Origin: Bacteroidota bacterium | GTDB lineage: Bacteria > Bacteroidota > Bacteroidia > 2-12-FULL-35-15 | Direction of reading: 5' to 3' | DNA length: 64,000 bases | NCBI GenBank assembly: GCA_025963725.1 | Contig: JAOQAE010000002.1 | Span: forward strand, 445,221-509,220 | Part shown: positions 26,294 to 61,806 of the stretch, piece by piece | How positions within the stretch are numbered: the stretch's first letter is position 1 | How the letters are laid out: each line of letters opens with the position of its first letter | Position numbers and translations under genes: made by a program | The notes under the pieces: model-generated | Told to the model about the DNA's origin: nothing | Seen by the model: only the letters and a program-made list of their open reading frames with translations | Database searches by the model: none

Positions 26294-27778
26294 TCAGTCC
26301 CTGGAACCTGCTTCCAGCACTTCAAACACCTTCACCATCGCAAGCGTATCCATTTTGCAGTATTCAAGCAGCTGCTCGCGTACCTCAAGTATTTTGAACA
26401 TATCGGTTTCACGCTGCAGCTTTTCAAAGGTGATCATGGCAATGCTTCCGCTGGAGATCTTCAGATCTGCGTAGCTCAGCTCAGGAGCAATAGCCGGCAG
26501 CAGGTTCTTGATGGAGAAGGAATTCTTCATGGCGGGGTGATAGAAGCTCTTTTCCTGGAAAGGCTGCATCAGGTCGACGATCCGGCCCAGCCGCTCATCA
26601 ATGGCAGCGCCGTGTTGAGGAAAATCTTTCTTTAAGCCGTTGAGCACATTCCTTTCCATCAGCGCATCGAACACGAGGATGGTGCCTTCGCCTTCCGTAT
26701 GCTTCAGCAGGCTTTCAATGAATGCCTTTCTCGGATCGAAACCCTGCTCCGCAAGGAATTCGATATGCTGTGCCTCTGCTTCCGCGCTTGTTTTAAAATG
26801 CAGTGAGAACTGGAAAGGCAGGTGCTGGTATGGACGGGTACCGTTGTAAATGGGGATAGCCGGCATGAAGGTCTCAAAATCCATAAAATAAACAGGATAC
26901 GAGATCTTTTGCATGAACCGCTTCAGCGCCGGCTTATCGATCAGCGGCTGGCCCGTTTTAACGGCATTGATGTGGAGGTTCGCATTTTTATTCAGCACGT
27001 TCTCCTCCGGGATCTCGGGGATGGTGCGGTAACCGGCATCATAGAGCGCAAACTGGTCGGCTTTGGAAATGCCCGTGATCTCGAACACCGAATTGGCGGG
27101 AACATGCTTCCAGCAGGTATTCATAAAATCGCAGTTGTAAGGGCTGAAGCAATGCTCACCGATCTTCATCTCCGGCATTCTCGCATCGGCAGCCACCAGC
27201 TTCGACTGTGCTATCTTTTCCGAGATCATGGCCTGGTTGGAAAGCGCTTCTTTTTTTACCGAACGGAAAGCGAACAGCCCATGGGGGTCTACATCGCCAT
27301 GCCTCACGTACTGGTTGTTGATGGTGATGAGCGAAATATCCTCGAGCCGGAGGCCGGAATTGGTGATCACCCAATACTGGAGGGAAGCATCGAGCAGGTA
27401 GGTTTGCGAGATCTTGGTCGAGCTTTTTACTTCATAGGCATACCAGAGGCCTTCCTTTTTCACAAGAATGTCGAGAATGGCGAGCACCTGCTCGAACTGG
27501 AAAGCAGCTTCATAAATGATCTCTGCGCCGGATGCGATCAGCTCCTGCGTGCGTTCCACTGCAGCGGGATTATCGGAGCGCTTTGCGGGAGTAGCATCGG
27601 TACCGCCGGGAAACAGCTGCTGCGCAACCACGCCTACATTGCTTCCGCGGTTAAAGATGGATTGCTGCTCGGCCGAAGGCGCATCCCGCAATTGGATGAA
27701 ATTCTTGTACAGGTACAGGGATTTGGCGCACTGGAGCCCGCGCAGGAAGGTTGATTTACTAAGAATATGCTTTTCCAA
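26294..27778 (-). CDS. Cas4/RecB-like PD-(D/E)xK nuclease domain fused to a DUF2779-type (DnaQ/RNase H-like) domain
   Basis: N-terminal YEVKSS E-x-K motif with a Cys cluster (CFSPYNCDFMNTCW); central YFMDFETF DEDD-like motif; family assignment is from memory. Confidence 0.5.
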   Translation of the reverse strand: MEKHILSKSTFLRGLQCAKSLYLYKNFIQLRDAPSAEQQSIFNRGSNVGVVAQQLFPGGTDATPAKRSDNPAAVERTQELIASGAEIIYEAAFQFEQVLAILDILVKKEGLWYAYEVKSSTKISQTYLLDASLQYWVITNSGLRLEDISLITINNQYVRHGDVDPHGLFAFRSVKKEALSNQAMISEKIAQSKLVAADARMPEMKIGEHCFSPYNCDFMNTCWKHVPANSVFEITGISKADQFALYDAGYRTIPEIPEENVLNKNANLHINAVKTGQPLIDKPALKRFMQKISYPVYFMDFETFMPAIPIYNGTRPYQHLPFQFSLHFKTSAEAEAQHIEFLAEQGFDPRKAFIESLLKHTEGEGTILVFDALMERNVLNGLKKDFPQHGAAIDERLGRIVDLMQPFQEKSFYHPAMKNSFSIKNLLPAIAPELSYADLKISSGSIAMITFEKLQRETDMFKILEVREQLLEYCKMDTLAMVKVFEVLEAGSRD

Positions 27779-28007
27779 AACCGTGTAAGATAAGGCTGCA
27801 AAATTACGAATTTTACGGGCTGCCGGCTGTTAATAATTTTAATCTTTAAAATGCGCTGGTTTGTCTGGAAAAAACAACCACAAAACGATAAAAGTCGTGT
27901 TTCACAGTGTTTCCGGCAAAGAGTTCATCCACAATTGCAACTTAATTTAAACATCCTACGTCTTAATTTTATATATTGTTATCCGAAATTATTAGCTTTA
28001 GCTAACT

Positions 28008-28370
28008 ATGAAAAAACAGTTCCTCCTATTTATCCTCTGCTGTTCATTTTATTTTTGCAGCATTGGCCGGATCCACTCACAAACCGCAGCGCCTGCACTC
28101 TCCGAACTTATTTTAAGCGTGCCTTCCATCACCGATAAAACGTATGACGATGTAAGGCTGATCCTGGCAGGGATTGAAGGCGTTACGCTCAGCGGCTACT
28201 GCGAGCAGTACAAATGTTTCCTGATCTATTATGACCCTTCCAAGATAAAGAACGGGGAAGCCATTGCCTACGCTGTGCAGGCAGCCAATCCTTCGTATGC
28301 TACCGAAGTAAAAACAGGCGCAAGCATCGCCCAGCTCACTTCCGGCTGCACCGCATTCGGCGTAAGGTAA
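28008..28370 (+). CDS. hypothetical secreted protein (120 aa)
   Basis: Signal peptide MKKQFLLFILCCSFYFCS; no recognised motif; immediately upstream of the giant T9SS protein. Confidence 0.4.
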   Translation: MKKQFLLFILCCSFYFCSIGRIHSQTAAPALSELILSVPSITDKTYDDVRLILAGIEGVTLSGYCEQYKCFLIYYDPSKIKNGEAIAYAVQAANPSYATEVKTGASIAQLTSGCTAFGVR

Positions 28371-28389
28371 AACTCACATTCAGCTATTT

Positions 28390-31300
28390 ATGAAAAAGTC
28401 ACTACTCTTTCTTTCCCTCATTACGTCGGCGTTTGCCTCGGATGCACAAACTACGCTCATAGGAGCTGCCAACAATGGCAATTTTGAGAATGCAACACCG
28501 GGCACCAACTGGACCATCGTTAACCCAGGAACCAACTCGCTATGGTTCTGCGGCACCACTTCCAAATGTGCCGGAACCAACGGAGCTTATATTGGCACTG
28601 CCGTGGGCAATAACAATTACAATACGGGAACAAACAGGATCGCGCATATATACCGCGATGTTACCTTTCCCGCAGGTGAAACGCAGATCACGCTTACGTT
28701 CGACTGGAAAGGCCAGGGAGAAAGCACATACGACGGGTTAAAAGTCTTCATCGGCTCGGCAAGCGCCACGCCCGTAGCCAACACGGCATTTACAACAACC
28801 GATGCAACCGCATCGCAGATCGGCAGCACATGGTATAACCTGCAGGCAGCATGCGGCTCGGCAAGCATTACCATTACGGCTGCACAGGCCGGCAACTCAG
28901 CTGCTGCAAGCACAAGGCGCATCGTCTTTTCATGGCAGAATGATAACCTCAGCGGAACAACGCCTGCGGCAACATTCGACAATGTAGTGCTCACGAGCGC
29001 CATACCACCTGCGCCTAACTGCGCCACGTACACATCGCCTGCAAACGGCGCAACCGGGATCTGCAATACAAGCGCTTCGCTTAACTGGACCGCGCCTGCC
29101 ACCGGAGGCACGCCAACAGGCTATTTGCTGTATTTCGGTACGGATGCGGCCGCCACTAATATTGTGAACGGTACCAACATTGGAAACGTGCTCACGTACA
29201 ATCCGGGAGCACTCACTGCAAGCACCACCTATTACTGGAAAATAGTGCCTACCAACGGCGGCGGTTCCGCCAGCGGCTGTACGATCTATTCGTTTACAAC
29301 AAACGCCGGATGCTATCCCCAGGCAACGGCTTCCTACACGGCCTGCGGCGGCACATACTACGATTCAAATATTTCAGGGAATTATGCAAGCAGTGAAAAC
29401 AGCACCATCACCTTCTGCCCCAGCGTTGCCGGGCAAAAAGTATCTGTGCTGTTCAGCGCTTTCAATACCGAAGCTACTTATGATATCCTCACGGTGTACA
29501 ACGGGCCAAGCACCGCATCTCCTGTGCTGGCGAGCTTATCCGGAACCACGGTGCCTTCCTGCGCATACACGTCCACAGATGCAGGCGGCTGCTTAACTTT
29601 CCGCTTTGTTTCCGACGGATCATTTAACTATTCGGGCTGGACTGCAGCCATCAGCTGTGTGGCATCGGCGCCGGTGCCTAACTGCTCTGCTATTACATCC
29701 CCCTCGGCAGGCGCAACCGGGATCTGCAGTACCAGCGCATCGCTCAACTGGTCGGCACCAACGGGTTGCGGCATTCCCACGGGATACCTGCTTTACTTCG
29801 GAACGGATGCGGCGGCTACCAACATTGTGAACGGCACCAACATCGGGAATGTGCTTACCTACAACCCCGGAGCACTTTCGTCGAGCACCACTTATTACTG
29901 GAAAATAGTGCCTACCAGCTCGGCAGGCAGCGCCAGCGGCTGTGCGATCAATTCCTTTACCACATCGGCCGGCTGCTTTACACAGCAAACCGGATCGTTC
30001 AGCTCCTGCAGCGGAAGTTATTACGATTCCAGCCCTACCGGCAACTACGGGAACAGCGAGAACAGCACCATTACTTTTTGTCCCTCTACGGCAGGACAAA
30101 AAGTGCAGGTGCTCTTTAATACCTTCAATACAGAAAGCGGCTTCGATATTTTAACTGTATACGATGGGCCAACCACGGCCTCGCCTGTGCTTGCAACCCT
30201 TTCAGGAAGCAGTGTTCCAAGCTGTCCGTATATTTCCACCAATGCCGGCGGATGCCTTACCTTCCGCTTTGTTTCCGATGGTTCTGCTACCTACTCCGGC
30301 TGGGATGCCAGCATCAGCTGTGTGGCCTCCGCACCACTGCCGGGCTGTGCAACACTTACAGCCCCGGTGGACGGCCTTACAGGAGTTTGCAATACCAGCA
30401 TGAGCCTCAACTGGACCGCACCTTCGGGATGCGGCGTTGTTACGGGGTATCTATTGTACTTCGGAACTGATCCGGCTGCAACAAACATTATCAACGGCAC
30501 CAACATCGGGAATGTGCTTACCTATAATCCGGGCATACTTTCAGCGAGCACCACCTATTACTGGAGGGCTGTGCCGGTAAATTCGGTGGGAAGCGCAACA
30601 GGCTGCCCTATCTATTCATTTACCACCAGCGCCGGATGCTATACACAGCAAACCGGAACATTCAGCGCCTGCGGAGGAAATTATTACGATTCAAACCCTA
30701 CGGGCAACTATGCAAATAACGAGAACAGCACCATTACATTCTGCCCGAGCGTTGCCGGCCAGTTCGTTCAGGTGAACTTCAGCTCCTTTGTAACCGAAAG
30801 CGGCCTCGACATCCTTACCGTGTATAACGGGCCTACCACTGCTTCTCCCGTGCTTGGAACGCTTTCTGGAAACATTATCCCCTGCACCTACACATCCACC
30901 GACGCAGGCGGATGCCTTACCTTCCGCTTTGTATCCGACGGATCCACACGCTATGCAGGATGGAATGCGCTCATCAGCTGCGTTTCCACACCTCCGGGGC
31001 CCCTGGCCGGAAGCACCTGCGCCAATGCGCTTTCGATCACGCTTCCCTACAGCGCCACTTCGCAAACCACCGCCTGCTACGGAAATGATTATACAAATGC
31101 CAGCACCGGCTCCTGCGCCACCCTGTATGAATCAGGAGAAGACCATGTGTATGCGTACACAGCCAGCGGCGCCGAATGTATCGGCATCACCCTTTCAAAC
31201 ACCAGCACCAACTCCATCGGCTACCAGGTGTACAGCGGCTGCCCGGGATCTGCGGGAGCAAGCTGCATCGGCTCGGCAGGAGGCGCAACTTCGTCGACCC

Positions 31301-34158
31301 TCACCGGGAATGTTACGTTACCGGCTGCAGGTACCTATTACCTCGTAGTGGATACCTGGTCGACCCCGCTGAATGCAAATTATGATCTTTCCGTTTCTTC
31401 CTTCGGCTCGGGCCCTGCAAACGACCTGCCCTGCAGCGCCACTCCAATGACGCTTGGCGTTACTGAAACCGGCGACAATACCTGCAGCGGAAGCTCGGGC
31501 GAGCCGGCGGCACCGGCCTGCTGGACAGTTGGAAACAACAATTCCGTATGGTACAGCATAGTGCCTGCAGGTACCACCCTTAAAATAAGGACCAGCCTCG
31601 GAACACTAAGCAATACACAGATCGCCGTGTACAGCGGCACCTGCGGGCCAACGCTGACAATGGTTGCTTCCGCCTGTAACGACAATGGCCCTAACTGCGG
31701 ATCTACCACCGATTATGCCTCCACCTTATCGCTCACCGGCTTAACTGCCGGAAGCACCTATTACATCCGCGTAGACGGCTATACCAACCTTACGGGGACA
31801 TTCGGCATTGTTGCGATCGACGGTGCTTCCAGCTTCCCTCCTGTTGCGGGGCAGGATTGCAGCCTCGGAAATCCTGTATGTAATTCCACCATGTCGGTGA
31901 GCAATCCCGGCTACCAGGGCATCGGCTCCACCTGCGATATTCCTTCCAGCTACTGCCTCTTATCGGCTGAACGAGGATCGGCATGGTATACCTGGACCAC
32001 CAATGCGGCGGGTAACATTAACTTTGATATTGTGCCGAACGACTGGCCGGGATCACCAAGCACTACCAGCACCGATTATGACTTTGCATTATGGAAAGTA
32101 TCCGGCGGGGTTTCCTGCGCCACCATCCTTGCAGGAACATCTACGCCTGTAGCATGTAACTACAGCGGGCTTGGCGTAACCGGCCTCAGCCCTACCGGCA
32201 ATTCACCCGCTGCATACCCGGGCTTCAACGCCTCCTACGAGCCGCAGGTAGCCTGCGCGAGCGGCGACACCTGGATATTGCTGATCAACAACCACAGCAC
32301 CAGCACACAGGGCTTTACGATCAACTTTGCCACAGGCGCGGGCGGAGCACCTATCAACTATACACCTTCGCCTACTTCCATTACGTGGTCGGGCGGAACA
32401 AACACTGCCTGGAACCTTGCCAGCAACTGGGGCGGATGCGCCGTTCCTGTATGCGGCATCGATGCGGTTGTAAATCCTTTCACCACGCAGCCAAACATTA
32501 CTGCCGCAATGGGCGCGCAATACGTGAAGAACCTTACGATCAACCTGGGCGCCACCCTAACGCTGGGCGCGGGAAGCATCCTGCACATCTGCGGAAACCT
32601 GCTGAACAACGGGACCATTATCGCTTCTCCTACCTCCACGATCATTTTCGACAATGCAGCTTCGGCGCAGACCATGACGGGTAACTTTACAGGCACAAGC
32701 ACACTCGGAAACCTTACCGTTACTAAAACAGGCAGCTCGCTGTTCACGTCCGACGATGTGAGCATGAGCGGCAGCTTTACAACGTCGAACAGCACCAGCA
32801 CATTCGACAGCAATGGCAAATACATCAAGGTGGCAGGGAACTTCGTGAATGCAGCAGGAAACACCACCTTCAGCAATACCGGCACAACCGGAACGCTGGA
32901 ATTTAACGGTACTTCCGCCCAAACCTTTACGCAGGGAAGCAGCCAGCTCGACCTGAACAACGTGCTCATGAACCATACCAGCACGGGGGTTACCCTGCTT
33001 ACCGATATGAACATCAAGGCAAGCACCGGAACGCTCACGCTGACACTTGGCAAGATCACAACGGGCGCATTCAAAGTAGTGGTGAGCAACGCTTCCACCA
33101 CCTGTGTAACTGCCGGGAATACGAGCAGCTATGTGAACGGATTTCTGAGAAGGTATATCAATAACTCCACCGGCTCATTCGATTTCCCTGTGGGAACATC
33201 GAGCGCTTACCAGCGTGCGAATGTGAATTTCACGACCGCACCTACCATCACATACCTTACTGCCGATTTCCAGGTGTACGGAACCGTTCCGGGCCCTCTC
33301 GGCTCCAGCGAATGCGGATCGACGTACAACATGAATGCGCTGGACAACGGCTTCTGGAACATTGATGCAAACACTCCTAACAACAATACCGGCGTGTACA
33401 ACATGACCCTGTACAACCGCTCCTACACCAATGCGGCAAGCGGCTGGACGGTGATGGCACGCCATAACGGAAGCGCCACATGGGACATTGTGAACGGCGA
33501 CGGAAGCATGGGAACCTGCGTTGCAGGCGCTGTGACCGCAGTTGTACGAAACAACATGAAAGGCTTCTCGAGGTTTGGAACAGCGCAGTCGGACAATCCG
33601 CTGCCGATCGAGCTGATCTCGTTCACGGGCAAAAATGAAGGCGCAAAGAATAAGCTGGAATGGACTACTGCTTCAGAAGTGAACAATGATTATTTCTCGC
33701 TCGAGCATTCGGCCGACGGCAGCTCGTTTGAAACATTTGTTACGAAGGAAGGCGCAGGCAACAGCTCCGTAAGGATCAACTACGATGCCTATGACTATTC
33801 GCCATACAACGGCACCACGTATTACAGGCTGAAGCAAACGGATTACAACGGAAAATACAGCTACTCCTCCATCATTTCGATCGAGAACAAGCTTGACATG
33901 GTGGCTGTGAGCAATGTGCATCCGAACCCTACCACGGACGACCTGAACTTTGATTTCTATTCGCCGGTGAAGGGCACCGTAAGGATCATGATCATGGATT
34001 ATACGGGCAGGATAGTGGCTGATAAGGTGCAGACGGTTGAAGAAGGAAAATCGAGCCTCAACACACAGATGGGCGAGCTTGCAAAAGGCGTGTATGCCCT
34101 GAAGGTTGAATTCAGCGAAGGCGGATTTAAATCGATCACGAAAGTGGTAAAATATTAA
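28390..34158 (+). CDS. giant T9SS-secreted surface protein (1922 aa): signal peptide, three FN3-like+CUB-like modules, PPC-like beta-sandwich domains, beta-helix-like region, T9SS type A C-terminal sorting domain
   Basis: C-terminal Por/T9SS CTD (NVHPNPTTDDLNFDFY...GVYALKV); three copies of about 220 aa repeated (LNWTAP...YYWK...CPSVAGQ...LTFRFVSDGS). Confidence 0.8.
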   Translation: MKKSLLFLSLITSAFASDAQTTLIGAANNGNFENATPGTNWTIVNPGTNSLWFCGTTSKCAGTNGAYIGTAVGNNNYNTGTNRIAHIYRDVTFPAGETQITLTFDWKGQGESTYDGLKVFIGSASATPVANTAFTTTDATASQIGSTWYNLQAACGSASITITAAQAGNSAAASTRRIVFSWQNDNLSGTTPAATFDNVVLTSAIPPAPNCATYTSPANGATGICNTSASLNWTAPATGGTPTGYLLYFGTDAAATNIVNGTNIGNVLTYNPGALTASTTYYWKIVPTNGGGSASGCTIYSFTTNAGCYPQATASYTACGGTYYDSNISGNYASSENSTITFCPSVAGQKVSVLFSAFNTEATYDILTVYNGPSTASPVLASLSGTTVPSCAYTSTDAGGCLTFRFVSDGSFNYSGWTAAISCVASAPVPNCSAITSPSAGATGICSTSASLNWSAPTGCGIPTGYLLYFGTDAAATNIVNGTNIGNVLTYNPGALSSSTTYYWKIVPTSSAGSASGCAINSFTTSAGCFTQQTGSFSSCSGSYYDSSPTGNYGNSENSTITFCPSTAGQKVQVLFNTFNTESGFDILTVYDGPTTASPVLATLSGSSVPSCPYISTNAGGCLTFRFVSDGSATYSGWDASISCVASAPLPGCATLTAPVDGLTGVCNTSMSLNWTAPSGCGVVTGYLLYFGTDPAATNIINGTNIGNVLTYNPGILSASTTYYWRAVPVNSVGSATGCPIYSFTTSAGCYTQQTGTFSACGGNYYDSNPTGNYANNENSTITFCPSVAGQFVQVNFSSFVTESGLDILTVYNGPTTASPVLGTLSGNIIPCTYTSTDAGGCLTFRFVSDGSTRYAGWNALISCVSTPPGPLAGSTCANALSITLPYSATSQTTACYGNDYTNASTGSCATLYESGEDHVYAYTASGAECIGITLSNTSTNSIGYQVYSGCPGSAGASCIGSAGGATSSTLTGNVTLPAAGTYYLVVDTWSTPLNANYDLSVSSFGSGPANDLPCSATPMTLGVTETGDNTCSGSSGEPAAPACWTVGNNNSVWYSIVPAGTTLKIRTSLGTLSNTQIAVYSGTCGPTLTMVASACNDNGPNCGSTTDYASTLSLTGLTAGSTYYIRVDGYTNLTGTFGIVAIDGASSFPPVAGQDCSLGNPVCNSTMSVSNPGYQGIGSTCDIPSSYCLLSAERGSAWYTWTTNAAGNINFDIVPNDWPGSPSTTSTDYDFALWKVSGGVSCATILAGTSTPVACNYSGLGVTGLSPTGNSPAAYPGFNASYEPQVACASGDTWILLINNHSTSTQGFTINFATGAGGAPINYTPSPTSITWSGGTNTAWNLASNWGGCAVPVCGIDAVVNPFTTQPNITAAMGAQYVKNLTINLGATLTLGAGSILHICGNLLNNGTIIASPTSTIIFDNAASAQTMTGNFTGTSTLGNLTVTKTGSSLFTSDDVSMSGSFTTSNSTSTFDSNGKYIKVAGNFVNAAGNTTFSNTGTTGTLEFNGTSAQTFTQGSSQLDLNNVLMNHTSTGVTLLTDMNIKASTGTLTLTLGKITTGAFKVVVSNASTTCVTAGNTSSYVNGFLRRYINNSTGSFDFPVGTSSAYQRANVNFTTAPTITYLTADFQVYGTVPGPLGSSECGSTYNMNALDNGFWNIDANTPNNNTGVYNMTLYNRSYTNAASGWTVMARHNGSATWDIVNGDGSMGTCVAGAVTAVVRNNMKGFSRFGTAQSDNPLPIELISFTGKNEGAKNKLEWTTASEVNNDYFSLEHSADGSSFETFVTKEGAGNSSVRINYDAYDYSPYNGTTYYRLKQTDYNGKYSYSSIISIENKLDMVAVSNVHPNPTTDDLNFDFYSPVKGTVRIMIMDYTGRIVADKVQTVEEGKSSLNTQMGELAKGVYALKVEFSEGGFKSITKVVKY
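28999..30985 (+). repeat. three tandem direct repeats of about 660 bp inside the adhesin gene (FN3+CUB-like modules)
   Basis: Long identical nucleotide runs (e.g. ggaacggatgcggcggctaccaacattgtgaacggcaccaacatcgggaatgtgcttacctacaaccccggagcactt) recur at about 29100, 29790 and 30460. Confidence 0.8.
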
Positions 34159-34173
34159 GAGCAGATCAATGGC

Positions 34174-34208
34174 AGGGGCTTCACTGAATGTGAAGCCTCT
34201 TTGCTTTT
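34174..34208 (+). terminator. rho-independent terminator of the adhesin gene
   Basis: aggggcttcac-tgaat-gtgaagcctct followed by ttgctttt. Confidence 0.65.
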
Positions 34209-34306
34209 AAACGGTTCCGAAAACTAAGTTTCCGCCTTCTTTTGAATGGAGCATTTTGAAAATAAATCTTTACATTCGTAACGTTTTTACAAAACACCCT
34301 AAAAAA

Positions 34307-35362
34307 ATGCTGATCAAAAGGTGCCTTGTGTTTCTGATTTGTATTTCCGCCGGCAGCTCCTGCTTTGCGCAATTGAATGCAAGCGCAGGGAATGATAAAG
34401 TGATCTGCCCCGGATTCGGCATTGTGATCGGCGGCTCGCCTACCGCATCGGGAGGCCTCGCGCCATACACCTATTCCTGGCAGCCGACCACCGGATTAAG
34501 CGCAACCAATACATCAAATCCTACAGCCACTCCAGGTTCCAACATCAGCTATACTGTTACCGTTACCGATGATACCGGGGCGGTAAGGACGGATGTAGCC
34601 ACTGTTTTCATCAATGACATTACCTACATCACCGCCGGAAGGGATACAAGCATCTGCGTGAACAGCTTTGCAGGCATCGGTTCGGGCGGAAATAATTATC
34701 CGGGCATCACTTATTCATGGTCACCGGGAAGCACGCTCGACGATTCCACCAGCGGGGCGCCGGTATCATCACCGGGCTTATCGAGCGTTACGTATACATT
34801 AACGGCAACAACGGCTGGGTGTCCGCCGAAAACCGACCAGGTGACAGTTACCGTGATCCCGACACCTCCTATTAATGCAGGCCCGGACACAGTCATACAG
34901 GAAGGCGCCGTAGCCATCCTCCACGGTTCGGGAGGTGCAGCATACGCCTGGGGAAACACCCCGGAGATCATGTACATTTATTCTTCCAGCTGCGATGTGG
35001 AGCCGGTGGTAACCACCACGTATTACCTTTACGGAACCGATCCCACGGGGAAATGCCCGGGCTACGACAATGTTACCGTATTTGTTGAAGCGAATGATGA
35101 AGTAGTGATCTATAATACATTTACGCCGAACAACGACGGCAACAACGATACCTGGTACATCGGTAATATTCAGAAGTACCCCGACAATCAACTGGAAGTA
35201 TACAACCGCTACGGCAAGCTGGTTTATAAAACGAGCGGCTATGCGAATACCTGGGACGGACGGGTTTCGGGGGATGAGCTTCCGGCAGGGACTTATTTTT
35301 ATGACCTTAATCTCGCGCCGGGGCTTCCAAAGCATCACGGCACACTCACCATACTCAGGTAA
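34307..35362 (+). CDS. T9SS type B C-terminal domain (gliding-motility-associated CTD) protein, SprB-like small cargo
   Basis: C-terminal FTPNNDGNNDTWYI...YNRYGKLVY...WDGR motif; Ig-like repeats; signal peptide from Met at 34307 (the ORF starts at 34256). Confidence 0.75.
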   Translation: MLIKRCLVFLICISAGSSCFAQLNASAGNDKVICPGFGIVIGGSPTASGGLAPYTYSWQPTTGLSATNTSNPTATPGSNISYTVTVTDDTGAVRTDVATVFINDITYITAGRDTSICVNSFAGIGSGGNNYPGITYSWSPGSTLDDSTSGAPVSSPGLSSVTYTLTATTAGCPPKTDQVTVTVIPTPPINAGPDTVIQEGAVAILHGSGGAAYAWGNTPEIMYIYSSSCDVEPVVTTTYYLYGTDPTGKCPGYDNVTVFVEANDEVVIYNTFTPNNDGNNDTWYIGNIQKYPDNQLEVYNRYGKLVYKTSGYANTWDGRVSGDELPAGTYFYDLNLAPGLPKHHGTLTILR

Positions 35363-35365
35363 GAA

Positions 35366-36325
35366 ATGAAAAAGATACTGGCATGCTGCTATTTGCTTAT
35401 TGTGTTCGCGGGCGCTTCGCCTGCGCAGCAAATGCCATACTATTCACAGTTCCGGAGCAATCTTTACATGATCAACCCGGCGGTTACAGGAACTAAAAAG
35501 CTGGTGGATGCGCGCCTTAATTACCGCGCCCAGTGGATGGGTTATGAAGATGCGCCGCGCACGGCGAACATGAGCCTTCACAGCCGCTTCCTGAAAGGGA
35601 AGATGGGCGCCGGGCTTTACCTGATGCAGGATAAGGTAGGGCCGTTCAAGCAAATGAACCTCGGGCTGAGCTATGCCTATCACATTCGCTTTCCCGATGT
35701 GGAGCTTTCCGCAGGTGTAGCCGGGAATTTTTCAAAACAGACCCTCATCGGCGATAAAATTTACCTTCACAATTCGCAGGACCCTTCCATCAACCAGTAT
35801 GTGACCAACAGCACCTGGGCTTCGGATGCACACGCGGGGATCTACCTGTACAACGACCGCTTTCATGTTGGGCTCAGCGCCCTGCACATGATGGAAACCA
35901 CTGCTGAATTTTACAAGAAGGACACTACAAAAAAGGGATTCCTGAAATATGCCGACCACGTAAATTTTACGCTGGGCTACAATTATTCCCAGAACCCTGA
36001 TTATGTTCTGGAAAGCACCCTGTACGGGATCTACGTTGCGGGCACCCCGTTCAATCTTGATTACACGCTGCGCGTACATTACAAGCAGATGATCTTCGCG
36101 GGATTTTCAGTACGCCTGCGGGATGCGGTAGCATTGCATGTAGGCGCCACGTTCATGGAAGAATACCAGGTGAGCTATTCGTACGACCTGCTGATCGGCA
36201 AGATGAAGAACTACAGCAGCGGCTCGCATGAGATCATGATCGCGTTCAGCAGCAGCATCTTCAAGCAGAAGCGCGGAAGGGCGAACGACAAGTTCCTGCA
36301 CCAGCGCTACGGCTATATGTTCTAA
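35366..36325 (+). CDS. PorP/SprF family T9SS outer-membrane protein
   Basis: N-terminal QQMPYYSQFRSNLYMINPAVTG resembles PorP/SprF; beta-barrel-like alternation; 4-bp gap after the type-B cargo gene. Confidence 0.7.
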   Translation: MKKILACCYLLIVFAGASPAQQMPYYSQFRSNLYMINPAVTGTKKLVDARLNYRAQWMGYEDAPRTANMSLHSRFLKGKMGAGLYLMQDKVGPFKQMNLGLSYAYHIRFPDVELSAGVAGNFSKQTLIGDKIYLHNSQDPSINQYVTNSTWASDAHAGIYLYNDRFHVGLSALHMMETTAEFYKKDTTKKGFLKYADHVNFTLGYNYSQNPDYVLESTLYGIYVAGTPFNLDYTLRVHYKQMIFAGFSVRLRDAVALHVGATFMEEYQVSYSYDLLIGKMKNYSSGSHEIMIAFSSSIFKQKRGRANDKFLHQRYGYMF

Positions 36326-36327
36326 AG

Positions 36328-37095
36328 CTATTCCACAATTTTATATTTCAGCACCGCTTCATTCCTTGAGCAGGAATTGAAATGCCACCATTCCGTGGTG
36401 ATGCCTGTAAATCCGGCGGCCTGCATGGCCTCCCGTAAGATCTCCCTGTTAAAAAGCTGCTTGTGTGTAAGCCTTCCCTCGCGGATCATGCGCTGCTCCT
36501 CACGCGGATATGCAAGCTCCCCGAAAAAATCATAGGGTGTTCCCATATCGAGCAGGATCCCGTTCTCGTCAATGATGCTGAGGTCGACAGCAGCGCCGAA
36601 ATTATGCAGGGAGCCATTCTGCGGATTGGAAACATACTTGGAGCGTTCGTAGGCAGGAACCGCAATGGTGTCCCACATCCTCGCCTGGATGCTGCGCGGC
36701 CTCACACCGTCGAAAACGATCAGCGAATAATACGGGTATTTCTCCTTCAGCAGCTCCTGCGCCTTTTTCAGCTTTAATGCCACATCCGGCTGCAGGTAAC
36801 ATTTTTCAAGGTCGCCATACATATCAGCGAACAGGAAATTATCGCAGCTGGAATATTTCAGGTCAACGGAGATGCTGCTGTCTGCAGAGGCAATCTCCAC
36901 CAGCCCTGCGGCAATGAGCTGCTGCTCGATGGCTGCGGTGTCAGGAACGATCTTGTTCCCGGTACTGACTTCGGCTGGCTTTGCAGCGGCAGAATCGGCA
37001 ACAGCCAGGGGAACATCTGTACGCTCCTTTGCCTTCTCCTTGCAGGCAGCAAGCAGCGCTGCTAAAAACAATATGGATAAAAAGTTCTTCCCCAT
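36328..37095 (-). CDS. M15 family D-Ala-D-Ala dipeptidase (VanX/DdpX-like), lipoprotein
   Basis: VanX-like motifs (SxHxxGxAVDL, ...EWWHF); lipoprotein signal LLAACKE. Confidence 0.7.
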   Translation of the reverse strand: MGKNFLSILFLAALLAACKEKAKERTDVPLAVADSAAAKPAEVSTGNKIVPDTAAIEQQLIAAGLVEIASADSSISVDLKYSSCDNFLFADMYGDLEKCYLQPDVALKLKKAQELLKEKYPYYSLIVFDGVRPRSIQARMWDTIAVPAYERSKYVSNPQNGSLHNFGAAVDLSIIDENGILLDMGTPYDFFGELAYPREEQRMIREGRLTHKQLFNREILREAMQAAGFTGITTEWWHFNSCSRNEAVLKYKIVE

Positions 37096-37135
37096 GTGAA
37101 GCGGCAAAGTTACGGATAATTAATACTTTTGTGAG

Positions 37136-38092
37136 ATGAACGCACATGCTTCCAAAATACTCATGATCCGCCCGGTACAGTTCGGCTTCAACGAGGAAAC
37201 CGCCGGAAGCAATTCGTTTCAGAACAAGGCGGCGGAAGCAGCTGAGCAGATCCAGCAGAATGCCTTAGAAGAGTTTGATGCCTTTGCGCAGAAGCTCCGG
37301 GATGCCGGAATAGATGTTGAGCTCTTTAGCGATACGCCTCTGCCCTATACTCCCGATTCCATATTTCCCAACAACTGGATCTCCTTTCACAGCAATACGA
37401 TCGTGCTTTACCCGATGCTGGCGGAGAACAGGCGCTTTGAAAGGCGTCAGGACATCATTTCCCGCTTCAGCGACAGCGTAACAACAATGATCGACCTTTC
37501 GGAAAACGAAAGAAAGAACATTTATTTAGAAGGTACCGGCAGCATTGTTTTCGATTATGAGAACCGCATTGCCTTTGCTAATCTCTCAGCGCGTACAAAT
37601 AAAACATTATTATCGGAGCTCTGCTTCCGTCTTAATTACAGGCCTGTGGCCTTTAAGGCGGTAGACCTTGCAGGCGCCGATATTTATCATACCAATGTGC
37701 TGATGTGCATCGGGAAAAAATTTGCAGTGCTTTGCAGCGAATGCATCCCGGATGCGGAAGAGCGTAAACTGCTGATCAGCGAGATTGAAAGAACCGGCAG
37801 GGAGATCATTTTCATCAGCTATGCGCAGATGAATTCCTTTGCAGGAAATATGTATGAGCTGTTCAATGATAAAAAGGAAAGCATCATTGTGATGAGTGAA
37901 CAGGCTTATAAAGCATTAACAAAAGAGCAGGTTACCCGGCTTGAAAAATACGGCAGCATCCTGCATTCACCGCTTTATACCATTGAAAAGCATGGCGGCG
38001 GCAGCGCAAGGTGCATGATAGCGGATGTGAGGTGGCAGCCGGCGGGATTTATTGATGATGTATTTGAGTTTGTGAGTGATGTTTTTTTGTAA
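37136..38092 (+). CDS. amidinotransferase/arginine deiminase-superfamily hydrolase (CtlX-like)
   Basis: N-terminal KILMIRPVQFGFNEET and C-terminal GGGSARCM catalytic-Cys motif typical of the superfamily. Confidence 0.55.
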   Translation: MNAHASKILMIRPVQFGFNEETAGSNSFQNKAAEAAEQIQQNALEEFDAFAQKLRDAGIDVELFSDTPLPYTPDSIFPNNWISFHSNTIVLYPMLAENRRFERRQDIISRFSDSVTTMIDLSENERKNIYLEGTGSIVFDYENRIAFANLSARTNKTLLSELCFRLNYRPVAFKAVDLAGADIYHTNVLMCIGKKFAVLCSECIPDAEERKLLISEIERTGREIIFISYAQMNSFAGNMYELFNDKKESIIVMSEQAYKALTKEQVTRLEKYGSILHSPLYTIEKHGGGSARCMIADVRWQPAGFIDDVFEFVSDVFL

Positions 38093-59148: not shown

Positions 59149-61806
59149 TTAATGGCTTTGCTTTACTAATTTCCCCTTGCTTACAGATCCGTCAGTACCC
59201 TCGATCGAATAGATGTATACACCGTTTGTAAAGCCTTCCATATTCAGTTTCAGGGAGCCGGTAAACCACTGCTCCATCAATTTTCTTGAAGTGAGATCAT
59301 AAATAACTATGATAAATGAGCTCGCGTCATTCCCTTCAATATTCACAACATTGTCGAAAGGATTCGGATAGATCCCAACTCCTGGAGGTCCTTCTATTTC
59401 ATTAACTGAAGGTACGTAAGCACCCGGATATTCATAAGCGCCAATATCGATGCGGCCATTCCAATACCTGTCAGCACCGGCAAAATCAACCATAGGAACA
59501 AGGCTGTTGATAAGTGTATCACCAGCATCAATGCAAAGTGAGCTTTGCTTTATTGCCCAGTTATAAGAGCCTATATTGTACATGAACCCTATGGAATCGG
59601 TTGGATCAACAAACTGAGGTGGAACGTCAATGACCGCAATTCCGGTATAACCGCCCTGGACATTACAAAATGAAATATCTTCCGAACCCCATGCCGGGGA
59701 AGCATAACTGACCTCTCCTCCTGTATTATTGTATACAATATCATTTAATATGAAAGCATGGGTGCTGCTGCTGGATGCGCTATATATGCCTCCACCTTCA
59801 AGAAAAGCATAATTGTTACAGATAGTATTGTTAATTATAGAAGGATGTCCGAAAAAGCAATAGATCCCTCCTCCATACGATTCGGACATATTATTAAAGA
59901 TCACATTCTGAATGATCCGTGGATAAGGCATATCATCATTCATCGAACAAAAAATACCCGAATTCCGGTTATTATAAATCTCATTATTTAAGATCAAGGG
60001 GCCGCCGGAATATATATCTATCCCTCTCCCCGAGTTATTATATATCTTGTTGTTGCGTATAACAGGTGAGCTGCCGGCAATAAAAATGCCTTGTCCCCAG
60101 TAATAGGCTCCTCCGGTGCTATAACAAACTGAACTGCTGTCGACAACTGCATTGGAATAATTCGTAAACATTAATCCCCCTGAAACATAGGGAGCACTGG
60201 GCAAATTATACGTTTTGCAGTATTCAACGCTACAAAACCGAAGGACGGAAGTATCAGGCGAAGTATTATTATAAAACTGGATCCCATTCCACCGTGCATT
60301 GACCTTGTCATAAGGAGTAAAAACGATGGAGTCGTTCCTCAACCCGATTGCTTCTAAAATGCCATAGACCTGCATTCCATAATGTCCCATGAAAAGCACA
60401 GTAGTACCCGGGCAAATAATTATTTTTGCACCCGGAAGAATTACAACCTCACCCGTTACTTTTATTATACCTCCGCAATAAGTATGGGTTCCGGATAGCA
60501 CACCGGCGATATTGTCCGTGCCTTTACCTTTCAGGCTTACTATCACATCCGATGTATTTGTTGAACTGATCACCAGAGAATCGGAATGCCACAGGGTATC
60601 CGACGGTAGAAAGCGAACAGCGAGGAAGGTATCTTTTTGGGGCAAAAGTAAAAATGAAGCAGACGGTGAGTACACCGAATCGGCCATGCTTACCTGAAAA
60701 GTGGAAGAAGAGCTTACACTAACATTTAAATTCATATTGCCTTTGTTACTGATTTTTACTCTCCTCACTTTATATGCCCCGGCTGTAACTTCATTGAAAT
60801 TGACAGAGTCAGGTAGTACAACAATCCTATATACACTATCGGGATAAAGGTTCTCAATAATATGTTTTTTGAGAATGACCCCATTTACCCCAATGGCAAA
60901 CATTTCTTTTTTATGATCGTTCAGGATCCTGTTTAATAATGAAGGATGAGTGAGGTCCGGATCCCATAAAACACCCTCTGTTGAAGTTGTATAAATATTG
61001 TTTCCGCTCAACAGGTACCCATCAATTCGATTGATAAATGAAATATCGCTTGGAACAATTCCGACATTTGCAGCCAAGACTGTTGATGCCCCATTCATTT
61101 TATAGAATCGGCCTGCGTCTGTCATCAGGTAACTTAATGTATCATTTACAAATGAGAACCTGGCATTATAACCCGGAACAGCCACATTGTACCATACCTG
61201 ACCACGGTTAGTGGTTTTGAATCCTCTTGTATAAGGTGCCGGAGCGCAGCCTCCCATTGGGAGATGTACAGTGCCGAATACGTAAGCACTACTATCGTTG
61301 ATTATTTGAAACTGGCTAAGCGCGTCCATGTAATCACCTTTATACTGCCAGGTTAAGCCATAGTCAGAAGTGGCATAAATGCGACAATTTGTAATCGGTA
61401 TAGTACCGCAGGAATAAGTATAGTGCTCAATATAGAGCCCTTCCTTTGCATTAAAGAACTGCAGATCAGTAGCTGCCAGGGCCAGTGTGCTTACAATGCT
61501 CCAGGTGCTTCCGCCATCATCGCTGCGGTAAATTTTATTTCCCCCTGCAAAAACCGTATCAGTGCCAACGCTGCAAACAGAGGTGATCACTCCGCCAAGA
61601 TTTGCAACAGTATTCCAGGTAGTTCCCTGATCTGTCGTTTTTAAAACCGTTCCGCTGTCGCTCACAGCATATCCGATCGAGTCCGTGGGAAAACAAATGT
61701 CAACGAGATTTTCGGAGGTACCGGAAGGTACAAGGTTCCACTGAGAAAATGCAAAACCGATGTTCAGGAAAAAAAACACAATCAGAGATAAGCGCTGAGC
61801 TTTCAT
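59149..61806 (-). CDS. T9SS type A sorting-domain protein with BNR/Ycf48-like N-terminal region and right-handed parallel beta-helix repeats
   Basis: C-terminal Por CTD (GIYPNPFDNVVNIE...GVYIYSI); repeated NNxIxxN beta-helix units; signal peptide. Confidence 0.75.
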   Translation of the reverse strand: MKAQRLSLIVFFFLNIGFAFSQWNLVPSGTSENLVDICFPTDSIGYAVSDSGTVLKTTDQGTTWNTVANLGGVITSVCSVGTDTVFAGGNKIYRSDDGGSTWSIVSTLALAATDLQFFNAKEGLYIEHYTYSCGTIPITNCRIYATSDYGLTWQYKGDYMDALSQFQIINDSSAYVFGTVHLPMGGCAPAPYTRGFKTTNRGQVWYNVAVPGYNARFSFVNDTLSYLMTDAGRFYKMNGASTVLAANVGIVPSDISFINRIDGYLLSGNNIYTTSTEGVLWDPDLTHPSLLNRILNDHKKEMFAIGVNGVILKKHIIENLYPDSVYRIVVLPDSVNFNEVTAGAYKVRRVKISNKGNMNLNVSVSSSSTFQVSMADSVYSPSASFLLLPQKDTFLAVRFLPSDTLWHSDSLVISSTNTSDVIVSLKGKGTDNIAGVLSGTHTYCGGIIKVTGEVVILPGAKIIICPGTTVLFMGHYGMQVYGILEAIGLRNDSIVFTPYDKVNARWNGIQFYNNTSPDTSVLRFCSVEYCKTYNLPSAPYVSGGLMFTNYSNAVVDSSSVCYSTGGAYYWGQGIFIAGSSPVIRNNKIYNNSGRGIDIYSGGPLILNNEIYNNRNSGIFCSMNDDMPYPRIIQNVIFNNMSESYGGGIYCFFGHPSIINNTICNNYAFLEGGGIYSASSSSTHAFILNDIVYNNTGGEVSYASPAWGSEDISFCNVQGGYTGIAVIDVPPQFVDPTDSIGFMYNIGSYNWAIKQSSLCIDAGDTLINSLVPMVDFAGADRYWNGRIDIGAYEYPGAYVPSVNEIEGPPGVGIYPNPFDNVVNIEGNDASSFIIVIYDLTSRKLMEQWFTGSLKLNMEGFTNGVYIYSIEGTDGSVSKGKLVKQSH

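What the first reader, a model, noticed from the sequence alone, without database searches (positions are those of the whole stretch)
28390..34158. 1,922-aa T9SS adhesin with three near-identical 660-bp internal repeats
The FN3-like+CUB-like modules are repeated with long stretches of 100% nucleotide identity. That indicates very recent duplication or ongoing concerted evolution. Such repeats cause assembly collapse and copy-number variation. Downstream are PPC-like domains and a beta-helix region, so function is probably adhesion or substrate binding.
Basis: seen in the sequence. Interest (0 to 1): 0.5.

Follow-up and report, generated by a model that had tools for sequence, protein, structure and literature searches.

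The report
Modular T9SS surface protein, old repeats
This is a real 1,922-residue secreted surface protein of a soil Bacteroidota bacterium, built from binding-type modules that include three FN3–CUB repeats; those repeats are only about 70% identical in DNA and are ancient, so the find is fairly ordinary apart from a small unknown partner gene that always travels with it.

Summary
The ORF (28390–34158, +, 1,922 aa) and three tandem 663/663/660-nt repeats are real. The repeats are not near-identical: 67–72% nt identity, 73–76% aa identity, longest shared exact run 32 nt. Synonymous divergence is saturated (dS 1.3–2.3) and ω is 0.10–0.15, so the duplication is old and under purifying selection. 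It is neither recent nor undergoing concerted evolution, and assembly collapse is not a concern.

Supported domain calls: CUB ×3, FN3 ×3, T9SS type-A CTD, and a β-helix (by fold). PPC is only sub-threshold on sequence, and CARDB is absent. The N-terminal domain is a MAM/CBM-like jelly roll. No catalytic domain was found.

Orthologues carry 1, 2 or 3 FN3–CUB units. Unit 1 is the original copy; expansions arose independently in different lineages.

The best reading is a non-enzymatic, T9SS-exported surface binding protein, with a variable head on a conserved PPC-like/β-helix core.

Outside the finding's coordinates, a small secreted protein of a rare unnamed family (28008–28370) lies directly upstream in 8 of 9 loci checked. 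The exact big protein is already in NCBI as "hypothetical". Verdict: new member of a known kind, low-to-moderate interest.

The parts
28008..28370 (+). Small secreted partner protein (120 aa). It has a signal-peptide-like N-terminus and a conserved domain of about 85 aa with two invariant Cys. It ends 19 nt before the big gene.
   Evidence: ORF listed. Homologous ORFs lie directly upstream on the same strand in 8 of 9 loci checked. No Pfam or NCBIfam match. Family of 43 representatives among 1.84 billion proteins.
28390..34158 (+). The 1,922-aa ORF (stop codon included): T9SS type-A cargo and multidomain surface protein.
   Evidence: An identical protein is in NCBI as MAG hypothetical protein JWO09_449.
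28390..28446 (+). Sec-type signal peptide (residues 1-19, MKKSLLFLSLITSAFASDA), followed by a conserved Gln.
   Evidence: Read from the sequence. Orthologues keep a hydrophobic N-terminus followed by Q-T-T. No signal-peptide predictor was available.
28447..29004 (+). N-terminal MAM/CBM-like jelly-roll beta-sandwich (residues 20-205).
   Evidence: AlphaFold model pLDDT 88.9. Foldseek hits to meprin and neuropilin MAM domains, CBM61/16/27 and gingipain cleaved-adhesin domains, E about 1e-5, TM about 0.55. An internal copy of the same domain family in P0057 coincides with its best Pfam MAM stretch; the whole-protein MAM score is 52 bits over 4 stretches. No Pfam hit on the query itself.
29005..29667 (+). 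Repeat unit 1: FN3 (29005-29310) plus CUB (29311-29667). This is the ancestral copy.
   Evidence: Its FN3 is 82% identical to the single FN3 of the closest relative P0002, which exceeds its identity to units 2 and 3.
29668..30330 (+). Repeat unit 2: FN3 plus CUB.
30331..30990 (+). Repeat unit 3: FN3 plus CUB (one codon shorter).
30991..31833 (+). Two PPC-like beta-sandwich domains, M1 (residues 868-1008) and M2 (residues 1009-1148).
   Evidence: PF04151 at 18.9 and 19.6 bits, sub-threshold. The orthologue P0042 reaches the cut-off with 26.0 bits for the whole protein, its best stretch lying in the equivalent domain. PF23759 GBD_T9SS_assoc hits the same region in P0011.
31834..32391 (+). M3 (residues 1149-1334): the most conserved domain, a beta-sandwich with an invariant acidic cluster (PNDW...TDYDFALWK).
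32392..33084 (+). Right-handed beta-helix / beta-solenoid stalk (about residues 1335-1565).
33085..33909 (+). Beta-sandwich domain (about residues 1566-1735) followed by an FN3/Ig-like domain (about residues 1736-1840) preceding the CTD.
33916..34155 (+). T9SS type-A C-terminal sorting domain (residues 1843-1922).
   Evidence: PF18962 at 35.1 bits (cut-off 27) and TIGR04183 at 25.5 bits (cut-off 23).
34174..34200 (+). Terminator-like hairpin (11-bp stem, 6 G-C pairs, T-rich tail), 16 nt after the stop codon.
   Evidence: It is the strongest such site in 27700-36400, although the total count of sites is not above the shuffled expectation.
34256..35362 (+). Neighbour: small T9SS type-B-CTD protein. 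The true start is probably the internal ATG near 34307.
   Evidence: PF13585 CHU_C 5.3e-26 and TIGR04131 1.3e-21. The gene is syntenic at the P0002, P0021 and P0030 loci but absent at the P0003, P0005 and P0049 loci.
35366..36325 (+). Neighbour: PorP/SprF-family outer-membrane protein, the presumed cognate shuttle of the type-B protein just upstream.
   Evidence: PF11751 1e-60 and TIGR03519 1.5e-65. The arrangement is as described for type-B substrates in PMC12618676.

Best explanation
The gene encodes a large, non-enzymatic binding protein (adhesin-like) that the type IX secretion system exports to the surface of a Bacteroidota cell.

Steps shown by evidence here:
- It has a Sec-type signal peptide at the N-terminus and a type-A T9SS sorting domain at the C-terminus.
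- Between them lies a chain of beta-rich modules. A MAM/CBM-like jelly roll sits at the distal tip. Three FN3-CUB units follow; their CUB halves keep the acidic E/D/D positions that align with the corresponding acidic positions of cubilin and PCPE-1 CUB domains. Then come three PPC-like beta-sandwiches, a right-handed beta-helix, a beta-sandwich and an FN3-like domain.
- No catalytic domain is detectable.

Steps inferred from published T9SS biology:
- After Sec export, the CTD is recognised by the T9SS and handed to the PorV shuttle.
- The CTD is then removed, and the protein is either anchored on the surface or released.

Steps inferred from the anatomy:
- The conserved C-terminal core (PPC-like domains, beta-helix, sandwich) acts as a rigid stalk.
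- The variable N-terminal head (MAM-like domain plus 1-3 FN3-CUB units) carries ligand specificity.
- Tripling the FN3-CUB unit adds two more binding sites and extends the reach.

The triplication is ancient. Unit 1 is orthologous to the single unit of the closest relative, units 2 and 3 were added later, and all three are kept by purifying selection. The gene is probably co-transcribed with the small secreted protein just upstream, which is a conserved partner of unknown role.
For: T9SS cargo: PF18962 and TIGR04183 are above their curated cut-offs. The N-terminal signal sequence is visible. A PorP/SprF gene, a type-B cargo and a second type-A cargo lie in the same window.

No enzyme: the only above-threshold Pfam/NCBIfam hits are CUB, fn3 and the T9SS CTD, and PDB-sequence searches hit nothing catalytic. 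The beta-helix has no invariant or near-invariant charged residue in 42 homologues.

Old, selected repeats: dS 1.3-2.3 and omega 0.10-0.15.

History of the units: orthologues have 1, 2 or 3 units. Unit 1 FN3 is 82% identical to the FN3 of P0002. The query's units are monophyletic in 76% of bootstraps and those of P0003 in 88%. P0003's latest duplication is phase-shifted.

Variable head on a conserved core: relatives sharing only the C-terminal 50-70% carry other heads, such as GEVED, Ig_7 or GBD domains.

Fate of type-A cargo: PorV is the shuttle, and cargo ends either statically anchored or released (PMC12618676). Covalent linkage to anionic LPS is described in PMC9143113 (abstract).

Operon: a 19-nt gap separates the small ORF from the big gene, and a terminator-like hairpin follows the big gene.
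Against: No ligand is identified. 'Adhesin' rests on domain types and fold neighbours only. MAM, PPC and beta-helix assignments are at fold level or sub-threshold, not family-level sequence matches. The Ca2+-site inference for CUB comes from alignment alone. Several beta-helix neighbours are enzymes (tailspikes, pectate lyase, pectin methylesterase). Core T9SS genes are not in the window, and secretion is untested. No promoter was located.
Confidence: 0.6

Rival explanations
1. It is a secreted carbohydrate-active enzyme. The beta-helix (or M3) would be a divergent polysaccharide lyase or hydrolase, and the MAM/CBM-like, CUB and PPC-like modules would serve as substrate-binding modules.
Against: No Pfam Beta_helix, Pectate_lyase or other catalytic family hit, even at E <= 5. 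A family profile finds no enzyme among PDB sequences. The beta-helix has no invariant or near-invariant D/E/K/R/H in 42 homologues. The best fold matches with long aligned lengths are adhesins or passenger domains; the pectate lyase match covers only 91 residues at rmsd 9.1.
Confidence: 0.12
2. It is a mobile gliding-motility adhesin of the RemA type: a type-A-CTD cargo with a lectin-like head that the gliding machinery propels along the cell surface.
For: RemA is a type-A CTD adhesin with a lectin domain involved in gliding (PMC12618676). The gene sits next to a type-B-CTD/SprF-like pair in several genomes. It has a long modular architecture with a lectin/CBM-like head.
Against: No sequence homology to RemA or SprB was detected or tested. 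The downstream type-B/PorP pair is absent from three homologue loci and is separated from the big gene by a terminator-like hairpin. In F. johnsoniae the type-A CTD tested gave static anchoring or release rather than helical movement. It is unknown whether the host glides.
Confidence: 0.12
3. One reading: the three units are products of a very recent duplication, or are being homogenised by ongoing gene conversion. The copy number would therefore be unstable and possibly mis-assembled.
For: The units of the query group together rather than with the positional counterparts in P0003. One 32-nt identical run between units 2 and 3 is longer than the codon-shuffle expectation (P about 0.0015), and synonymous codon sharing is slightly raised.
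Against: Nucleotide identity is 67-72% and dS is 1.3-2.3, which is saturated. There is no exact repeat longer than 32 nt. Unit 1 FN3 is closer to the orthologue P0002 (82%) than to its sister units, so homogenisation has not erased orthology. P0003's expansion has a different register, so within-protein grouping is explained by independent duplication.
Confidence: 0.03

Closest known systems
RemA of Flavobacterium johnsoniae (type-A CTD, lectin-domain surface adhesin)
   Same: A T9SS type-A CTD cargo. It is a large modular surface protein with a lectin/CBM-like binding head and no enzymatic domain (PMC12618676).
   Different: No sequence relationship was shown here. RemA has no CUB/FN3 array or beta-helix core as far as I know (own knowledge). 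A motility role is untested for this protein.
Beta-solenoid adhesins: L. reuteri SRRP binding region, Haemophilus Hap, Caldicellulosiruptor Tapirins, pertactin/UpaB autotransporter passengers
   Different: Sequence identity is only 8-12%. The secretion routes differ (sortase/LPXTG, type V, unknown) from T9SS. Here the helix is an internal module flanked by beta-sandwiches.
Animal Ca2+-binding CUB domains (cubilin CUB5-8, PCPE-1, neuropilins, MASP-1, TSG-6) and MAM domains (meprin, neuropilin)
   Same: The CUB halves match Pfam CUB and cubilin (E = 4.6e-26). Their conserved E, D and (S)D residues align with acidic residues at the corresponding positions of cubilin and PCPE-1; that those positions form the Ca2+ site is my own knowledge. 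The N-domain has a MAM/CBM-like fold. The co-occurrence of MAM, CUB and FN3 recalls neuropilin, meprin and enteropeptidase.
   Different: Bacterial context. The E-to-D spacing is 4 residues shorter and lacks the usual intervening Cys. MAM is not detected by sequence on the query. Ca2+ binding was not tested.
Database-annotated 'CUB domain-containing protein' / 'T9SS type A sorting domain-containing protein' of uncultured Bacteroidota
   Same: The exact protein is deposited as a hypothetical protein. About 40 orthologues share the same architecture.
   Different: Most orthologues have one FN3-CUB unit. Only this protein and P0003 have three, and none is characterised.
Type-B CTD cargo with its cognate PorP/SprF shuttle (SprB/SprF, Fjoh_3952/3951)
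   Same: The two genes just downstream (34256-36325) have exactly this arrangement.
   Different: That pair is a separate module. The big protein carries a type-A CTD, not a type-B CTD, so it should use PorV and not the neighbouring SprF-like protein.

Membership tests
T9SS type-A CTD cargo | C-terminal sorting domain matching TIGR04183 / PF18962 above the curated cut-off | tested here: met
   PF18962 35.1 bits against 27; TIGR04183 25.5 bits against 23; residues 1843-1921.
T9SS type-A CTD cargo | N-terminal Sec signal peptide | tested here: met
   MKKSLLFLSLITSAFASDA|QTT, judged by inspection only. The pattern is conserved in orthologues. No predictor was available.
T9SS type-A CTD cargo | Host encodes a T9SS (SprA/Sov, PorK/L/M/N, PorV, PorU) | tested here: inconclusive
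   The window holds a PorP/SprF-family gene, a type-B cargo and another type-A cargo. None of the core machinery genes is in the window, and the rest of the genome was not examined.
T9SS type-A CTD cargo | T9SS-dependent export and CTD removal | not testable with these tools
   Needs secretion assays or proteomics.
CUB domain (PF00431) | Sequence match above the gathering score, in each repeat | tested here: met
   77.6 bits against 21.4, 3 stretches. A profile of the CUB halves hits cubilin 3kq4 at 4.6e-26, PCPE-1 and neuropilins.
CUB domain (PF00431), Ca2+-binding subtype | Conserved Glu/Asp/Asp (plus Tyr, Ser) of the Ca2+ and ligand site | tested here: inconclusive
   E54, D102, S101 and Y25 are invariant, and D58 and S104 are at least 90% conserved, in 16 aligned CUB halves. 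The E/D/D positions are also at least 90% conserved across the 47-unit alignment. E/D/D align with the corresponding acidic positions of cubilin and PCPE-1. The identity of the site residues comes from my own knowledge, and metal binding was not tested.
Fibronectin type III (PF00041) | Sequence match above the gathering score | tested here: met
   45.5 bits against 25. Neogenin FN3 structures at E = 2e-5. A custom HMM finds one FN3 per unit.
PPC, bacterial pre-peptidase C-terminal domain (PF04151) | Sequence match above the gathering score (25.9 bits) | tested here: not met
   M1 18.9 bits and M2 19.6 bits on the query. Orthologues score 25.4 (P0011) and 26.0 (P0042) for the whole protein, with best stretches in the equivalent domains. 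So it is 'PPC-like', not a certified member.
PPC, bacterial pre-peptidase C-terminal domain (PF04151) | PPC / collagen-binding-domain beta-sandwich fold | tested here: inconclusive
MAM domain (PF00629) | Sequence match above the gathering score | tested here: not met
   No hit on residues 20-205 even at E <= 5. An internal copy of the same domain family in P0057 (771-939) coincides with that protein's best Pfam MAM stretch (779-938); the whole-protein score is 52 bits over 4 stretches.
MAM domain (PF00629) | MAM/CBM-type jelly-roll fold | tested here: met
   Model pLDDT 88.9. Foldseek hits to meprin alpha/beta MAM (E = 2e-5, TM 0.54-0.57) and neuropilin-1 MAM (E = 4.5e-4), alongside CBMs and gingipain adhesin domains. 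The fold does not discriminate MAM from CBM.
Right-handed parallel beta-helix (pectate-lyase-like fold) | Beta-solenoid fold | tested here: met
Right-handed parallel beta-helix (pectate-lyase-like fold) | Sequence membership (PF13229 Beta_helix or similar), or conserved catalytic residues | tested here: not met
   No Pfam hit. No invariant or near-invariant charged residue in the helix.
   Absent from all Pfam scans of the query and its segments.
Recently duplicated or concertedly evolving tandem repeat | Near-identical DNA copies with low synonymous divergence | tested here: not met
   67-72% nt identity, dS 1.3-2.3, longest exact run 32 nt.

The most novel reading that the evidence does not exclude
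The small secreted protein encoded directly upstream (28008-28370) is a dedicated, previously undescribed accessory of this family of T9SS beta-helix surface proteins. It could be, for example, a periplasmic chaperone or holdase for the very long cargo, or a co-displayed subunit. If so, the real functional unit is a two-gene module: a small partner, plus a conserved PPC-like/beta-helix core with swappable binding heads. The family would diversify by module duplication and domain-level recombination.
Probability: 0.45. Interest if true: 0.45.

Novelty: new member of a known kind. Interest (0 to 1): 0.27.

Why it matters
For genome annotation, a 'hypothetical protein' becomes a mapped, 12-module T9SS surface protein. 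It also removes a false alarm: the internal repeats are diverged enough that short-read assembly and the copy number here can be trusted.

Biologically, it is a clean example of how Bacteroidota surface proteins diversify. Variable binding heads (1-3 FN3-CUB units, MAM-like, GBD or GEVED domains) sit on a conserved stalk, and the tandem expansions arose independently and are kept by selection.

The one lead that could matter more widely is the tightly linked small protein of a rare, unnamed family. No dedicated accessory for a type-A T9SS cargo came up in the T9SS papers consulted here, where type-A cargo is described as relying on the general PorV shuttle.

Tried and rejected
- Tandem Repeats Finder found nothing. 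Its longest period is 500 nt, shorter than the 663-nt unit, so this null result says nothing about how diverged the copies are.
- Pfam on isolated segments gave nothing for the N-domain, M3, the helix, the sandwich or the pre-CTD domain.
- NCBIfam gave only the CTD.
- The word-indexed protein search for the small ORF found only one relative. The single-sequence search worked.
- The sigma-70 promoter scan was not above background. The Bacteroidota -7 motif TAnnTTTG is absent from the three relevant intergenic regions, so the promoter was not located.
- I considered and rejected a functional link between the big protein and the downstream PorP/SprF gene. That shuttle type serves type-B CTDs, the pair is missing at three homologue loci, and a terminator-like hairpin intervenes.
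- There are no tRNA genes or Rfam families anywhere in the window.
Full report
OBSERVATION. The window contains a single ORF at exactly the stated coordinates, 28390..34158 on the + strand, encoding 1,922 aa. Inside it are three head-to-tail repeat units at 29005-29667, 29668-30330 and 30331-30990. They measure 663, 663 and 660 nt, or 221, 221 and 220 aa.

The description of the repeats as 'near-identical', with 'long stretches of 100% nucleotide identity', is wrong.
- Pairwise identity is 67-72% in DNA and 73-76% in protein, and third codon positions are only 44-52% identical.
- The longest exact runs shared by two copies are 32, 26 and 25 nt.
- Tandem Repeats Finder reports nothing, but its longest period (500 nt) is shorter than the 663-nt unit, so that null result carries no weight.

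AGE OF THE REPEATS. Nei-Gojobori estimates between copies give dN 0.19-0.23 and dS 1.3-2.3, so synonymous sites are essentially saturated. ω is 0.10-0.15. These are old duplicates maintained by purifying selection.

I also shuffled synonymous codons within each unit.
- Codon sharing at conserved residues is only slightly raised: 0.49-0.54 against 0.39 ± 0.03.
- Only the 32-nt run between units 2 and 3 is clearly longer than expected (P ≈ 0.0015).
- This is compatible with residual common ancestry, or with one tiny old conversion tract. It does not indicate ongoing homogenisation.
- With no shared word longer than 32 nt, assembly collapse is not a realistic concern.

WHAT THE PROTEIN IS MADE OF. 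Above-threshold sequence matches are:
- CUB: 77.6 bits against a 21.4 cut-off, three stretches.
- fn3: 45.5 bits against 25.
- The T9SS C-terminal sorting domain: PF18962 35.1 against 27, and the type-A model TIGR04183 25.5 against 23.

HMMs built from the repeat halves find exactly one FN3 and one CUB per unit.

A profile of 16 CUB halves hits cubilin CUB5-8 at E = 4.6e-26, and also PCPE-1, neuropilins, enteropeptidase, TSG-6 and MASP-1. The invariant or near-invariant E, D and (S)D of the bacterial domains align with the corresponding acidic positions of cubilin and PCPE-1. That those positions form the Ca2+/ligand site is my own knowledge. Metal binding itself is therefore an inference.

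The N-terminus (MKKSLLFLSLITSAFASDA|QTT) looks like a Sec signal peptide followed by a conserved Gln.

Residues 20-205 have no Pfam hit. They do model confidently (pLDDT 88.9) as a jelly-roll β-sandwich. The nearest solved folds are meprin and neuropilin MAM domains, CBM61/16/27 and the gingipain 'cleaved adhesin' domains (E ≈ 1e-5, TM ≈ 0.55). An internal copy of the same domain family in the relative P0057 (771-939) coincides with that protein's best Pfam MAM stretch (779-938); the whole-protein MAM score is 52 bits over four stretches.

Residues 868-1148 form two domains with sub-threshold PPC hits of 18.9 and 19.6 bits against a 25.9 cut-off. The orthologue P0042 reaches the cut-off with a whole-protein score of 26.0 bits, its best stretch lying in the equivalent domain.

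Residues 1149-1850 model at pLDDT 87.3. The model contains a β-sandwich (M3), then about 230 residues of regular short strands with block mean pLDDT mostly 94-98, then another β-sandwich and an FN3/Ig-like domain.
- Foldseek found little for this multi-domain model.

No catalytic family is detected by Pfam, NCBIfam, or single-sequence or profile searches of PDB sequences. The helix has no invariant or near-invariant charged residue across 42 homologues.

RELATIVES AND HISTORY OF THE REPEATS. The exact protein is already in NCBI as 'MAG: hypothetical protein JWO09_449 [Bacteroidetes bacterium]', on a 1.74-Mb contig.

About 40 proteins from uncultured Bacteroidota share the full architecture. 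Most have one FN3-CUB unit. A small clade (P0005, P0007, P0008, and the truncated P0040) has two. Only the query and P0003 have three. More distant relatives carry arrays of 12-15 CUBs, or long FN3-CUB alternations.

In a tree of 47 units:
- The two-unit clade groups by position (98% and 97% bootstrap), so that duplication predates those species.
- The units of the query and of P0003 group within each protein (76% and 88%).

Splitting the units into halves resolves the history.
- The FN3 of unit 1 is 82% identical to the single FN3 of the closest relative P0002. That exceeds its identity to units 2 and 3 (79% and 74%). Unit 1 is therefore the ancestral copy, and orthology has not been erased by conversion.
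- In P0003 the youngest duplication is phase-shifted: CUB1≈CUB2 at 85% and FN3-2≈FN3-3 at 90%. That expansion was independent and more recent.
- Similarity rankings also change from domain to domain. The β-sandwich is 76-78% identical to P0002 and P0010 but 48-49% to P0004 and P0006. M3 and the helix show the reverse ranking for P0010. This indicates domain-level recombination within the family.

Copy number thus does vary, but between species and over long time scales.

SURROUNDINGS. A 120-aa ORF at 28008-28370, on the same strand, ends 19 nt before the big gene. It has a signal-peptide-like N-terminus and a conserved domain of about 85 aa with two invariant cysteines.

A homologue occupies the same position, 9-70 nt upstream, at the loci of P0002, P0003, P0005, P0021, P0030 and P0049. 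The same holds at a locus found starting from a 26%-identical small protein. There, the downstream ORF of more than 1,300 aa is 48% identical to the query over 989 aa, from the PPC-like domains through the β-sandwich, but it lacks FN3-CUB. Only the Flexibacter flexilis locus lacks the small gene immediately upstream.

The small protein matches no Pfam or NCBIfam model. It belongs to a family of just 43 representatives among 1.84 billion proteins, nearly all 110-135 aa. It is therefore linked to the conserved core, not to the repeats.

Sixteen nt after the big gene's stop lies the strongest terminator-like hairpin of the region, at 34174-34200. This suggests a two-gene transcription unit.

Downstream are a 368-aa T9SS type-B-CTD protein and a PorP/SprF-family gene. 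The literature describes this as the standard substrate-plus-cognate-shuttle arrangement for type-B cargo (PMC12618676). The pair is syntenic at three homologue loci and absent at three. I treat it as a neighbour, not a partner.

The rest of the window is ordinary chromosome. It includes another type-A cargo with a Pfam Beta_helix domain at 59149-61806. There are no tRNA or Rfam matches.

MECHANISM. Shown: the signals for Sec export and type-A T9SS sorting, the module chain, the absence of a recognisable enzyme, and selection on all three units.

Taken from published work:
- Type-A CTDs are collected by the PorV shuttle, and cargo ends up statically anchored or released (PMC12618676).
- In P. 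gingivalis anchoring is by covalent linkage to anionic LPS (PMC9143113 abstract).

Inferred:
- The conserved PPC-like/β-helix/sandwich core is a stalk.
- The MAM/CBM-like tip and the Ca2+-type CUB modules, spaced by FN3, form a multivalent binding head.
- Triplication increases valency and reach.
- The small upstream protein is a dedicated partner of unknown role.

I put about 0.9 on 'T9SS type-A cargo' and about 0.6 on 'non-enzymatic surface binding protein'.

Rivals:
- A β-helix or M3 enzyme (0.12).
- A RemA-like mobile gliding adhesin (0.12).

COMPARISON AND NOVELTY. Functionally the closest analogues are type-A T9SS adhesins such as RemA, and β-solenoid adhesins of other secretion routes. 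The modules are related to animal CUB, MAM and FN3 domains.

The protein passes the membership tests for T9SS type-A cargo (sequence features), CUB and FN3. It fails the sequence thresholds for PPC, MAM, Beta_helix and CARDB, while matching the PPC-like, MAM/CBM-like and β-helix folds.

It is a new member of a known kind and is already present, uncharacterised, in public databases. The repeats are not remarkable. The tightly linked small gene is the only feature that might lead somewhere new.

VERDICT. Observation partly confirmed. Interpretation partly supported: the architecture and the probable role hold, but recency, concerted evolution and assembly risk do not. Interest 0.27.

Noticed in passing
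window 28008-28370 (+); also L001 5587-5979, L002 5595-5978, L004 4045-4377, L006 5515-5928, L009 4545-4988, L010 4543-4977, L011 989-1348: A small secreted protein of 110-147 aa, from a rare unnamed family (43 representatives in 1.84 billion proteins), sits directly upstream on the same strand of the big T9SS protein in 8 of 9 loci. It tracks the conserved PPC-like/beta-helix core, not the FN3-CUB head. It has two invariant Cys, and no Pfam or NCBIfam match.
   Followed up: partly
window 34256-36325 (+): A T9SS type-B-CTD protein (CHU_C/TIGR04131; its annotated TTG start is probably too far upstream) followed 3 nt later by a PorP/SprF-family gene. This is a classic substrate/shuttle pair. It is syntenic at the P0002, P0021 and P0030 loci and absent at the P0003, P0005 and P0049 loci.
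   Followed up: partly
window 34174-34200 (+): A strong terminator-like hairpin (11-bp stem, T-rich tail) lies 16 nt after the big gene's stop. It separates that gene from the downstream type-B/PorP pair.
   Followed up: partly
window 31834-32391 (protein residues 1149-1334, domain M3): The most conserved part of the protein (91% identical to P0002). It carries an invariant acidic/aromatic cluster (motif PNDW...TDYDFALWK) and several invariant cysteines. This could be a Ca2+ site or a ligand site; it was not resolved.
   Followed up: no
P0003 (loci L002/L003), residues about 259-925: The other three-unit protein has an extra leading FN3. Its youngest duplication is in a shifted register (CUB1 vs CUB2 85%, FN3-2 vs FN3-3 90%). 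That expansion was therefore independent of, and more recent than, the one in the window.
   Followed up: partly
family-wide (P0002, P0004, P0006, P0010 compared with window residues 868-1922): Mosaic similarity. The beta-sandwich (residues 1566-1735) is 76-78% identical to P0002 and P0010 but 48-49% to P0004 and P0006. M3 and the helix are 74-78% to P0004 and P0006 and 46-62% to P0010. The CTD also switches affinities. This suggests domain-level recombination.
   Followed up: partly
P0044, P0084, P0091 (relatives returned): Relatives with 12-15 consecutive CUB domains and no FN3 spacers, and others (P0045, P0046) with long FN3-CUB alternations. These are extreme versions of the same expansion tendency.
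   Followed up: no
window 59149-61806 (-): A second T9SS type-A cargo (885 aa) with Pfam Beta_helix/NosD, a BNR-like N-terminal region and Por_Secre_tail.
   Followed up: no
window 36328-38092; L010 11515-13214; L006 12819-13577: An M15 D-Ala-D-Ala dipeptidase and a 'eukaryotic-type' DDAH (PF19420, 3.8e-97) follow the locus. The M15 gene is syntenic in L006 and L010, and the DDAH gene in L010 only. The block small ORF - big gene - type-B - PorP - M15 (- DDAH) is thus conserved among fairly distant genomes.
   Followed up: no
L008 1-9383 (Flexibacter flexilis DSM 6793): Two tandem paralogues of the family (at least 1,566 aa, and 1,460 aa). Only an unrelated 70-aa ORF lies between them, and the small partner is not seen immediately upstream of the second copy. 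This is the only cultured-organism member examined.
   Followed up: no
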